A DNA stretch of 64,000 bases from Escherichia coli. GTDB lineage: Bacteria > Pseudomonadota > Gammaproteobacteria > Enterobacterales > Enterobacteriaceae. The notes under the pieces were generated by a model. It was given only the letters and a program-made list of their open reading frames with translations. It had not been told where the DNA came from and ran no database searches. Numbering within the stretch: position 1 is the stretch's first letter; each line of letters begins with the position of its first letter. Position numbers and translations under genes: made by a program. Shown piece after piece: positions 48,453 through 49,676 of this stretch. The DNA is taken from NCBI RefSeq assembly GCF_016903815.1, contig NZ_CP069973.1; one strand, given 5' to 3'.

Positions 48453-48665
48453 ATGTCCGGTAAAATGACTGGTATCGTAAAATGGTTCAACGCTGACAAA
48501 GGCTTCGGCTTCATCACTCCTGACGATGGCTCTAAAGACGTGTTCGTACACTTCTCTGCTATCCAGAACGATGGTTACAAATCTCTGGACGAAGGTCAGA
48601 AAGTGTCCTTCACCATCGAAAGCGGTGCTAAAGGCCCGGCAGCTGGTAACGTAACCAGCCTGTAA
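48453..48665 (+). CDS. cspA: major cold-shock protein CspA
   Basis: 70-aa [24 protein letters not shown]... Confidence 0.95.
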
Positions 48666-48693
48666 TCTCTGCTTAAAAGCACAGAATCTAAGA

Positions 48694-48721
48694 TCCCTGC
48701 CATTTGGCGGGGATTTTTTTA
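48694..48721 (+). terminator. rho-independent terminator of cspA
   Basis: GC hairpin (ccctgcc...ggcgggg) followed by TTTTTTT. Confidence 0.7.
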
Positions 48722-49090
48722 TTGGATAAACCGCTTTATATGTAGAGAAGAACAGTCCCAGGAACAATCCAGATCCGGCACCGGAATGTCGCAATCACGA
48801 CAGACCGCACCATCGCACCCGGAACAATCACAATTATTATTCTTCTTTTTACGTATTACCTCGTTCAGGTGTTGCTTCTGCCTGATTGTCTGTGCCGCAA
48901 GTCGGCAATCTGCAAAACGCTGACGTATCTCGCCCCAGCCTGCAATAACACCTTTCTGTTGAATAATCTCTTTGACTGCTCCCGAACATCCCTGCGTTTG
49001 GTACAACACACTGTAAGCACAGCGGTATCCTTTGCGAGGAGAAAGGTGTCGTTGATAGAGCATTATCAACAGTAAAAGCAGTTTATTCAT
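48719..49090 (-). CDS. YidD/DUF37-like small protein with Cys-rich C-terminal tail
   Basis: 123-aa ORF; ATG at 49088..49090 with GGAG 5 nt upstream; N-terminal YQRHLSPRKGYRCAY... resembles the YidD signature; C-terminal CDCSGCDGAVCRDCD...CSWDC. Confidence 0.5.
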   Translation of the reverse strand: MNKLLLLLIMLYQRHLSPRKGYRCAYSVLYQTQGCSGAVKEIIQQKGVIAGWGEIRQRFADCRLAAQTIRQKQHLNEVIRKKKNNNCDCSGCDGAVCRDCDIPVPDLDCSWDCSSLHIKRFIQ

Positions 49091-49245
49091 GAAGGCTCCG
49101 AACCATTCCTGTTCCCGATTAAAAACTTATCTAATAGCCAAATCCATTCGTATTTAAAAAAACATTCATTAAAGAAATAAATTTGGGTGCAATGAGAATG
49201 CGCAACGCCGTAAGAAAGGCGGGAATAACTTCCCGCCAAAGACTC

Positions 49246-49398
49246 TTACTCTTTCAAATTGCAGGCTAAAAATGCCGCCAGCTCATAACTCCCCTGTTTA
49301 ATATGCAATTCACACAGTGAATCTCTTATCATCCAGGTGAAAAATAAAAGCGTGCAACAAATCACTATTAAAGAAAGTAATCTATATTTCTGCGGCAT
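49246..49398 (-). CDS. hokA: Hok-family type I toxin
   Basis: 50-aa ORF MPQKYRLLSLIVICCTLLFFTWMIRDSLCELHIKQGSYELAAFLACNLKE. Confidence 0.85.
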   Translation of the reverse strand: MPQKYRLLSLIVICCTLLFFTWMIRDSLCELHIKQGSYELAAFLACNLKE

Positions 49399-49458
49399 TC
49401 CCAGCCCCCTGTGTTGATTTCCAACGAGTAAGAGGCTAACCTTATGGTGTTCAGGCAT
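49246..49458 (-). CDS. mokA: mok-type overlapping reading frame (modulator of hok translation)
   Basis: 70-aa ORF in frame with and extending hokA upstream, as in hok/mok/sok loci. Confidence 0.5.
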   Translation of the reverse strand: MPEHHKVSLLLVGNQHRGLGMPQKYRLLSLIVICCTLLFFTWMIRDSLCELHIKQGSYELAAFLACNLKE

Positions 49459-49500
49459 AGGGTAGCCTCACTTTGATTTATAGTCAGGTGGGGCTTTTCT
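49437..49500 (+). ncRNA. sokA: putative Sok antisense RNA
   Basis: Plus-strand hairpin (agcctcac...gtggggct) plus T-run at 49464..49500, antisense to the mok start region; 5' end not determined. Confidence 0.35.
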
Positions 49501-49676
49501 CTGTCTGCCTTTCGGTGAATACCTGAGACAAACAGTCTCAAGCACCCGTGGCTATTCTAGCTTAATAAGTTCGTTTCTTCTCCTTGATATAATCCTAAAA
49601 AAATCTCATAAAATTAATATATGAGATAATCTTTATTCAGCAGAAGATTATTAAAGGTTGCTGTATTATTTAGCGA

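What the first reader, a model, noticed from the sequence alone, without database searches (positions are those of the whole stretch)
48719..49090. Unusual YidD-like ORF with a cysteine-rich tail between cspA and hokA
A 123-codon minus-strand ORF with a good ATG and GGAG Shine-Dalgarno begins MNKLLLLLIMLYQRHLSPRKGYRCAY..., resembling the YidD/DUF37 family, but its core is divergent and it ends in a tail with eight cysteines in about 30 residues (CDCSGCDGAVCRDCDIPVPDLDCSWDC). Its stop codon abuts the cspA terminator. I do not recognise it as a named K-12 gene; it may correspond to a locus that is disrupted or annotated only as fragments there (I recall small pseudogenes ysaC/ysaD hereabouts, but that is uncertain).
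Basis: partly seen in the sequence, partly recalled or inferred. Interest (0 to 1): 0.5.

Follow-up and report, generated by a model that had tools for sequence, protein, structure and literature searches.

The report
Second YidD-like gene, cysteine-rich tail
This is a real gene for a second, divergent copy of the small membrane-insertion helper YidD that carries an unstudied cysteine- and aspartate-rich tail; about 2% of E. coli genomes keep it, public databases label it simply "YidD", and its function is unknown.

Summary
The ORF exists as described (window 48719-49090, minus strand, 123 aa, GGAG five bases before the ATG, stop one base from the cspA terminator). The tail has seven cysteines in 27 residues, not eight.

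It is a real gene. It is intact in 112 of 5,426 complete E. coli genomes, always between cspA and hokA, and also occurs in E. fergusonii and other Escherichia lineages. Klebsiella and Superficieibacter carry it at the same glyS-cspA locus. dN/dS is 0.05-0.12 in the N-terminal domain and 0.16-0.65 in the tail.

K-12 and most E. coli have about 58 unrelated bases in its place and no fragments. The ysaC/ysaD recollection is wrong for this interval.

It is homologous to YidD but is not the housekeeping gene, which 5,424 of 5,426 genomes also carry. It has a 5-residue insertion, lacks the CHP..GGxDPVPP end, and sits outside the rnpA-yidC operon.

It belongs to a distinct subfamily of about 2,400 clusters across many phyla. 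All members share the layout: YidD-like domain, basic helix, disordered Cys/Asp tail. No conserved partner gene, solved structure or paper was found.

Function is inferred only: a membrane-peripheral protein with a metal- or thiol-reactive tail. The window allele has lost a family-conserved cysteine (W111). Interest is moderate.

The parts
48719..49090 (-). Coding sequence (123 codons plus TAA) of the YidD-like paralogue. RefSeq WP_001521571.1 is the annotated product in strain 7/2, which is 100% identical in DNA.
48893..49090 (-). Residues 1-66: YidD-like helical domain with family-invariant Y12, S17, K20, C24, A25, C35, S36 and C62.
   Evidence: TIGR00278 residues 3-69. hhalign to canonical YidD. 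Invariant columns. AF2 pLDDT 77-93 with the deep alignment.
48833..48892 (-). Residues 67-86: basic linker (net charge +5, RKKKNNN), predicted as a continuation of the long helix 52-87.
   Evidence: Family-wide linker: median 24 aa, 24% R+K.
48752..48832 (-). Residues 87-113: Cys/Asp-rich region (7 Cys, 7 Asp, net charge -6), predicted disordered. W111 occupies a column that is at least 90% Cys in the family.
48722..48751 (-). Residues 114-123: short basic/hydrophobic end (SSLHIKRFIQ).
49096..49099 (-). GGAG Shine-Dalgarno, five bases before the ATG. The upstream 150 nt is conserved within Escherichia.
48690..48717 (+). cspA intrinsic terminator hairpin, one base from the ORF's stop. It is the only hairpin available to end the convergent ORF transcript, with a weak T tract on the minus strand.
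48724..49173 (.). Presence/absence segment of about 450 bp (ORF plus its upstream region). About 58 unrelated bases replace it in K-12, AR434 and most E. coli. No flanking repeats or mobile-element signs.
49218..49237 (-). hokA terminator hairpin upstream of the ORF. It marks the upstream limit of any promoter the ORF has of its own.

Best explanation
Shown:
- The ORF is a genuine, selectively maintained gene for a second, divergent YidD-family protein.
- It belongs to a distinct, widespread subfamily. The layout is a YidD-like four-helix N-domain with three invariant cysteines, then a long basic helix or linker, then an intrinsically disordered acidic Cys/Asp-rich tail.
- The subfamily lacks canonical YidD's CRF-P(T/S)CS spacing and its C-terminal CHP..GGxDPVPP motif.
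- The gene is not in the rpmH-rnpA-yidD-yidC operon and co-exists with the housekeeping yidD.

Inferred from synteny and from synonymous divergence that tracks the flanks:
- In enterobacteria the gene is old at the glyS-cspA locus (Escherichia, Klebsiella, Superficieibacter).
- It has been lost repeatedly. A deletion or replacement removed it from about 98% of E. coli.

Mechanism (inferred, not shown; my probability is about 0.25):
- The strongly cationic N-domain plus linker (+12) places the protein on the cytoplasmic face of the inner membrane, as is reported for YidD.
- The tail's clustered CxC / CxxC / CD-hydrophobic-P-x-C thiolates bind soft metal ions (Zn, Cu, Cd) or act as a redox-reactive thiol module.
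- The protein would then be a membrane-tethered, metallothionein-like buffer or a metal/redox switch on a YidD-like activity.
- The window (ST405-type) allele has replaced a family-conserved cysteine with Trp (W111), and E. fergusonii alleles have lost two. The tail may therefore be under relaxed constraint in Escherichia.
For: Gene reality:
- Intact and at the same position in 112 E. coli genomes spanning 94-100% nucleotide identity.
- The exact protein is seen on at least 1000 contigs, and the 90% cluster includes E. fergusonii and Escherichia sp..
- Orthologues at 50-62% identity sit at the same glyS-cspA locus in Klebsiella and Superficieibacter.
- dN/dS is 0.05-0.12 in the N-domain and 0.16-0.65 in the tail.
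- ORF dS of 0.36 against glyS dS of 0.32 for the same genome pair.

YidD homology.

Second copy: canonical yidD is present in 5424 of 5426 genomes.

Distinct subfamily:
- A profile search of 1.84 billion representatives returns only 2409 hits.
- 130 species were hit across Proteobacteria, Actinobacteria, Deinococcus, Cyanobacteria and Abditibacteriota.
- 207 of 244 members have at least 4 Cys in the tail. The Cys region is 21% C and 14% D, and the linker is 24% R+K.

Structure: with the deep alignment AF2 gives the N-domain and the long helix 52-87 pLDDT of about 77-93 and the tail below 50.

Thiol link: in Rhodobacterales a glutathione S-transferase gene ends 3 nt before the start in at least 8 species.

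Against: - No experiment or paper bears on this subfamily.
- The tail matches no Pfam family, including metallothionein families, in any of 150 members.
- No partner gene is conserved across clades. The GST and ABC-F neighbours are clade-level synteny only.
- No consensus sigma-70 promoter lies upstream, and the hokA terminator sits just upstream, so expression in E. coli is unproven.
- Loss from 98% of E. coli, frameshifted alleles in databases (P0002, P0010, P0018, P0011, P0014) and loss of conserved cysteines show the gene is dispensable and possibly decaying here.
- Membrane association of YidD and the metal affinity of such motifs are recalled from established knowledge, not tested here.
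Confidence: 0.6

Rival explanations
1. It works like YidD itself. It would be a specialised or back-up insertion-efficiency factor that assists YidC/Sec insertion of particular inner-membrane proteins. The basic linker and Cys tail would serve as a (possibly zinc-stabilised) contact for ribosome, nascent chain or insertase.
For: The domain is homologous, with all three cysteines of the YidD core kept. PGAP's equivalog model scores it above cut-off. In Klebsiella it follows a ribosome-binding-type ABC-F ATPase gene.
Against: It lacks the invariant CHP..GGxDPVPP end and the CRF-PTCS spacing of canonical YidD. It is never in the yidC operon. It is patchy and dispensable while canonical yidD is universal. 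The ABC-F neighbour is confined to Klebsiella and absent from all E. coli.
Confidence: 0.2
2. In E. coli it is a decaying relic. The gene would be functional in other genera but effectively neutral here, surviving in ST405 and a few lineages only because it has not yet been deleted.
For: It is absent from 98% of E. coli. Within-E. coli dN/dS is 0.3-0.7, or higher on very few substitutions. Family-conserved Cys residues are lost: W111 here, and Y109 plus W111 in E. fergusonii. Frameshifted alleles exist. No consensus promoter was found.
Against: The frame is intact in all 112 complete genomes that hold it, across about 6% nucleotide divergence. N-domain dN/dS is about 0.1 between Escherichia lineages. 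The upstream region and Shine-Dalgarno are conserved in Escherichia.
Confidence: 0.15
3. It is a precursor of a ribosomally made, modified peptide. The YidD-like domain would act as a leader and the fast-evolving Cys/Ser/Gly/Asp-rich end as the core peptide.
For: The tails are hypervariable and Cys-rich, and usually end 1-3 residues after the last Cys. Known leader families also derive from ordinary protein domains (recalled knowledge).
Against: No maturase (radical SAM, cyclodehydratase or lanthionine synthetase), protease or exporter is a conserved neighbour in any clade examined. In E. coli the neighbours are cspA and hokA.
Confidence: 0.03
4. It is a small membrane-damaging or toxic protein, in line with the old 'haemolytic domain' name of PF01809, lying next to the hokA toxin locus.
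For: The Pfam family was first named for cell lysis caused by B. subtilis YtjA (PMC3573977). The N-terminus is very hydrophobic (LLLLLIML).
Against: There is no antitoxin-like partner. Adjacency to hok is not conserved: K. aerogenes and Superficieibacter lack hok there. PADLOC and PHROGs give no hit. The hydrophobic stretch is homologous to YidD's N-terminal helix and too short to span a membrane.
Confidence: 0.02

Closest known systems
YidD (membrane protein insertion efficiency factor; PF01809 / TIGR00278; E. coli b4557)
   Same: Homologous N-terminal domain of about 66 residues. The Y-Q-R-x-(I/L)-S-P motif and three cysteines are in equivalent positions, and G47 matches the conserved glycine. 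Both are small, cationic and have no signal peptide.
   Different: There is a five-residue insertion between Cys1 and Cys2, and CA(Y/H) replaces CRF. The PTCS proline and the invariant CHP..GGxDPVPP end are missing. It adds a basic linker and a Cys/Asp tail. It is not in the rpmH-rnpA-yidD-yidC operon. It is an accessory second copy rather than a universal single copy. Pfam scores it only weakly (25.5 bits).
Bacterial metallothioneins and Cys-rich metal-binding tails (for example SmtA; the CCCDGAC stretch of the ZntA N-terminus) - recalled, not tested
   Same: Short disordered stretches dense in CxC and CxxC with neighbouring Asp or Gly. The window tail contains GCDGAVC, and actinobacterial members end in VCCCG.
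   Different: There is no sequence-family match, since Pfam finds nothing in 150 tails. The tail is fused to a YidD-like domain. Metal binding is untested.
Zinc-centred redox-switch tails (for example the Hsp33 C-terminal CxC...CxxC) - recalled, not tested
   Same: A Cys cluster in a region predicted disordered without a ligand, attached to a folded domain.
   Different: No homology. The number and spacing of cysteines vary widely between members, which suits a buffer better than a precise switch.

Membership tests
YidD family in the broad sense (PF01809 / TIGR00278 homology) | Significant match to the family profile over the core domain | tested here: met
   TIGR00278 scores 75.8 bits (cut-off 40), E 1.7e-21, residues 3-69. 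PF01809 E 1.1e-5, 25.5 bits. 147 of 150 subfamily members hit PF01809 at E<=0.001. hhalign against canonical YidD gives 97.4% probability, E 1.4e-11.
YidD family in the broad sense (PF01809 / TIGR00278 homology) | Three conserved cysteines of the core | tested here: met
   C24, C35 and C62 are invariant in the subfamily and align with C31, C37 and C64 of E. coli YidD.
Canonical YidD (functional equivalog of E. coli b4557) | C-R-F-x-P-(T/S)-C-S spacing between the first two cysteines | tested here: not met
   The ORF has C-A-Y-S-V-L-Y-Q-T-Q-G-C-S, with a 5-residue insertion, no Arg-Phe and no Pro.
Canonical YidD (functional equivalog of E. coli b4557) | C-terminal K-C-H-P-x(3)-G-G-x-D-P-V-P-P motif | tested here: not met
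   H65, P66, G70, G71, P74, V75, P76 and P77 are invariant in 20 enterobacterial YidD proteins. The ORF has DCRLAAQT followed by a helix, and the motif is absent and unaligned.
Canonical YidD (functional equivalog of E. coli b4557) | Location in the rpmH-rnpA-yidD-yidC cluster | tested here: not met
   The ORF lies between cspA and hokA. The canonical gene overlaps rnpA and abuts yidC. None of the related loci examined showed that cluster.
Canonical YidD (functional equivalog of E. coli b4557) | Universal single-copy core gene | tested here: not met
   Canonical yidD is in 5424 of 5426 E. coli genomes at >=99% identity. This ORF is in 112 of 5426.
Canonical YidD (functional equivalog of E. coli b4557) | Improves YidC/Sec-dependent membrane protein insertion; peripheral inner-membrane location | not testable with these tools
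   Needs fractionation, cross-linking and insertion assays. The original study (Yu et al. 2011, J Bacteriol 193:5242) is cited in PMC3573977 but could not be read here.
Metallothionein-like metal-binding proteins | Match to a known metallothionein family profile | tested here: not met
   Pfam scan of the ORF and of 150 members found no metallothionein family.
Metallothionein-like metal-binding proteins | Stoichiometric binding of Zn, Cu or Cd through clustered thiolates | not testable with these tools
   Only composition supports it: the Cys region is 21% C with frequent CxC and CxxC.
Ribosomally synthesised modified-peptide precursors | Adjacent maturation enzyme, protease or exporter genes | tested here: not met
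   No such neighbour was found in E. coli, Klebsiella, Rhodobacterales, Pseudomonas, Vibrio or Deinococcus loci.

The most novel reading that the evidence does not exclude
The roughly 2,400-cluster subfamily is an unrecognised class of small bacterial proteins that databases uniformly mislabel as YidD. In this reading a YidD-fold membrane anchor carries a disordered Cys/Asp tail that binds metal or senses thiol or electrophile stress at the cytoplasmic membrane face. Its function would be unrelated to YidC-dependent insertion. The conserved endings (CDCSF, CSCG, VCCCGPIPIPFRF) would be specific ligand or partner motifs.
Probability: 0.25. Interest if true: 0.55.

Novelty: new variant of a known kind. 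Interest (0 to 1): 0.35.

Why it matters
YidD is one of the most conserved and least understood small proteins of bacterial membrane biogenesis, and these searches found no solved structure for it. A natural paralogue keeps the three-cysteine core but swaps the conserved C-terminal motif for a metal-type Cys/Asp tail. That offers a comparative handle on what the YidD core does.

There is also an annotation issue. An "equivalog" model transfers the name "membrane protein insertion efficiency factor YidD" to thousands of paralogues that fail several defining features.

For E. coli biology the importance is modest. The gene is a lineage marker of an ancestral locus, kept mainly in ST405-type strains (by strain names such as O102:H6 and "405") and a few other lineages, and deleted elsewhere.

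Tried and rejected
- **Remnants in K-12 or AR434.** blastn-short and tblastn gave only chance 10-mers. The ysaC/ysaD idea is rejected.
- **ABC-F remnant.** No trace of the Klebsiella ABC-F gene in the window or in any E. coli genome.
- **Mobile-element origin.** No flanking repeats or tandem repeats, no phage hits, and only megaplasmid or chromid hits in other genera.
- **Defence or phage protein.** PADLOC gave nothing, and PHROGs gave only E>0.08.
- **Conserved partner genes.** Naive ORF calling and clustering over 80 loci found only clade-level synteny. High-GC loci gave many spurious ORFs, so I did not annotate them further.
- **Tail domain search.** No Pfam family matched in 150 members.
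- **Promoter.** No consensus sigma-70 site upstream. Manual inspection found only weak candidates.
- **Literature.** Six searches found nothing on this paralogue. The primary YidD paper was not held.

Full report
**1. The observation**

GGAG lies at 49099-49096, five bases before the ATG. The TAA stop (48719-48721) is one base from the cspA terminator stem at 48690-48717. The Rfam cspA mRNA model ends at 48720.

The quoted tail has seven cysteines in 27 residues, not eight, together with seven aspartates. The whole protein has ten cysteines, at 24, 35 and 62 in the domain and at 87, 89, 92, 97, 100, 109 and 113 in the tail.

**2. It is a real gene**

The DNA is 100% identical over 1,351 bases to E. 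coli strain 7/2, where NCBI's pipeline annotates the ORF as "yidD" (WP_001521571.1). A sensitive blastn finds the ORF in 112 of 5,426 complete E. coli genomes. There is always one copy, always chromosomal, at 94-100% identity, and it is annotated as an intact CDS in every row shown.

Strain names such as O102:H6 and "405" suggest the bulk are ST405; that link is from my own knowledge. Five divergent carriers all have the ORF between cspA and hokA. The exact protein is recorded on at least 1,000 contigs. Its 90% cluster includes E. fergusonii and unnamed Escherichia species.

Orthologues of 50-62% identity exist in Klebsiella species, Pluralibacter and Superficieibacter. In Klebsiella and Superficieibacter they occupy the same place, between glyS and a convergent cspA.

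Nei-Gojobori estimates give dN/dS of 0.05-0.12 for residues 1-70 and 0.16-0.65 for the tail. Synonymous divergence of the ORF between the window and a divergent Escherichia (L016) is 0.36, against 0.32 for the adjacent glyS. The gene has therefore diverged together with its flanks.

**3. Absence from K-12 and most E. coli**

In K-12, AR434 and most other genomes, about 450 bases (window about 48724-49173) are replaced by about 58 unrelated AT-rich bases between the cspA terminator and the hokA terminator. Neither blastn-short nor tblastn detects a remnant.

The K-12 interval is annotated with ysaE, hokA/mokA, IS150 and sokA, but not ysaC or ysaD. No repeats or mobile-element signatures flank the segment.

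The gene sits at the same locus in several genera and in basal Escherichia lineages. The most economical history is an ancestral gene that was lost repeatedly, and once on the line leading to most E. coli. That history is an inference.

**4. Relationship to YidD**

- NCBIfam TIGR00278 scores the ORF at 75.8 bits (cut-off 40), against 91.4 bits for K-12 YidD.
- Pfam PF01809 gives only 25.5 bits.
- BLASTP against K-12 YidD gives 33% identity over 57 residues, with a gap between the first two cysteines.
- A profile-profile comparison of the subfamily with 20 enterobacterial YidD proteins gives 97.4% probability (E 1.4e-11) over 66 columns. It shows the same five-residue insertion and ends before the canonical C-terminal motif.

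Homology of the N-domain is therefore secure. However, the ORF fails several features that are invariant in canonical YidD: the CRF-x-P-(T/S)-CS spacing, the CHP..GG-x-DPVPP end, the rnpA-yidC context, and universal single-copy status (5,424 of 5,426 genomes). It is a paralogue, not the housekeeping gene. The "equivalog" name it carries in databases [13 protein letters not shown] function.

**5. A distinct, widespread subfamily**

A profile of the first 23 relatives, searched against 1.84 billion cluster representatives, returns only 2,409 proteins at E<=0.001 and 1,838 at E<=1e-10. This shows the subfamily is well separated from ordinary YidD.

A scan of one genome per species with the motif YQRx[LI]SPRKG found 130 species. 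They include Rhodobacterales, Burkholderiales, Neisseriales, Rhodocyclales, gamma-proteobacteria, Actinobacteria, Deinococcus, Cyanobacteria and Abditibacteriota. Relatives also sit on Pseudomonas, Vibrio and Deinococcus megaplasmids but on no sequenced phage.

Across 244 members the layout is constant:

- An N-domain with invariant Y12, S17, K20, C24, A25, C35, S36 and C62.
- A linker of median 24 residues that is 24% Arg+Lys.
- A Cys region of median 34 residues that is 21% Cys, 14% Asp and 12% Gly, with Cys-Asp the commonest pair.
- An end that usually stops one to three residues after the last cysteine.

207 of the 244 have at least four tail cysteines. Endings recur by clade: CDCSF or CSCG in proteobacteria, GVCCCG[PG]IPIPFRF in Actinobacteria and Deinococcus, and GCIVIPCCIPI in cyanobacteria.

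In a 150-sequence alignment the column of window residue 111 is at least 90% Cys, but the window allele has Trp. Other Escherichia alleles read CSCDC, and E. fergusonii reads YSWDC.

**6. Structure**

With the 150-sequence alignment AlphaFold2 gives four helices (2-16, 25-30, 35-50, 52-87). pLDDT is about 77-93 for most of the domain and linker, and below 50 for residues 94-112 and 121-123. The shallower alignment gave the same picture at lower confidence.

**7. Context**

No neighbour is conserved across clades. Two clade-level associations stand out:

- In Klebsiella the gene follows a 539-residue ABC-F ATPase of the ribosomal-protection-like type. That gene is absent from the window and from all E. 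coli.
- In Rhodobacterales a glutathione S-transferase gene ends three bases before the start, within an acyl-CoA dehydrogenase-thiolase cluster.

Pseudomonas, Vibrio and Deinococcus plasmid contexts are unrelated to one another. In the window there is no consensus sigma-70 promoter between the hokA terminator and the ORF. The 150 bases upstream and the Shine-Dalgarno are nevertheless conserved within Escherichia. Expression is untested.

**8. How it most likely works**

What is shown: a conserved YidD-fold domain, a cationic N-domain and linker (net +7 and +5), and an acidic, thiol-dense, disordered tail (net -6).

What is inferred: the cationic part holds the protein at the cytoplasmic face of the inner membrane, as reported for YidD. 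The tail binds soft metal ions or reacts as a thiol module. The protein would then be a membrane-tethered, metallothionein-like buffer or a metal/redox switch. The operonic GST in Rhodobacterales is the only contextual hint of thiol chemistry.

I put about 0.25 on this mechanism. I put about 0.2 on a specialised YidD-like insertion role and about 0.15 on the E. coli copy being an effectively neutral relic. A modified-peptide precursor or a toxin is unlikely, because no maturase, exporter or antitoxin neighbour exists.

**9. Novelty and verdict**

The protein is already in public databases under the YidD name, so the ORF itself is not new. Within the library searched, the subfamily's distinct architecture and its failure of canonical YidD features have not been described. 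It is best filed as a new variant of a known kind. Interest is moderate (0.35): the feature is real and the family is widespread and unstudied, but the E. coli copy is dispensable, possibly decaying, and has no functional evidence.

Noticed in passing
window 48453-48665 (+): The same protein accession (WP_000014594.1, the CspA sequence) is named cspE in many RefSeq E. coli records and cspA in others. This is an annotation inconsistency.
   Followed up: no
window 49246-49547 (-): The hokA/mokA/sok locus is intact here: a 70-aa mokA-hokA frame at 49246-49458 and a sok RNA match at 49396-49547, 124.9 bits. In K-12, VE-T9 and ST2747 an IS150 sits beside it, and hokA is frameshifted in CUPF09 and VE-T9.
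   Followed up: partly
window 49198-49269 (+): A small ORF equivalent to K-12 ysaE overlaps the 3' end of hokA on the opposite strand. It is annotated as a hypothetical protein in strain 7/2.
   Followed up: no
L004 4263-5882; L006 4295-5914 (Klebsiella): A 539-aa ABC-F ATPase of the ribosomal-protection-like type (NF000355, 341.5 bits, below the 380 cut-off) lies directly upstream of the Klebsiella orthologue. It has no counterpart in any complete E. coli genome.
   Followed up: partly
L024, L027, L032, L039, L052, L064 and others (Rhodobacterales): A glutathione S-transferase gene ends 3 nt before the YidD-like start, inside an acyl-CoA dehydrogenase / thiolase / FadB-like cluster conserved in 10-13 species.
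   Followed up: partly
L051-L099 (Actinobacteria), L037 and L049 (Deinococcus), L090 and L094 (Cyanobacteria): Short-tailed members end in a nearly identical GVCCCG[PG]IPIPFRF in two distant phyla, and in GCIVIPCCIPI in cyanobacteria. That is too conserved for a mere disordered metal sponge. An I-P-x-P element also occurs in the enterobacterial tails (IPVPD, IPLPD).
   Followed up: no
L026 2084-2869 (Arenicella MAG): One member is 261 aa: the usual domain and Cys region are followed by an extra part of about 130 residues with a hydrophobic stretch.
   Followed up: no
window 48758-48769 and 48818-48829; residue 111: A 12-nt direct repeat within the tail encodes D-C-S-G and D-C-S-W. The W111 codon replaces a family-conserved Cys. 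Escherichia alleles form a series CSCDC, CSWDC, YSWDC.
   Followed up: partly
window 48703-48719 and 49224-49240: The cspA and hokA terminator hairpins that bracket the presence/absence segment are 82% complementary over 17 nt. This is possibly a coincidence of two GC-rich hairpins.
   Followed up: no
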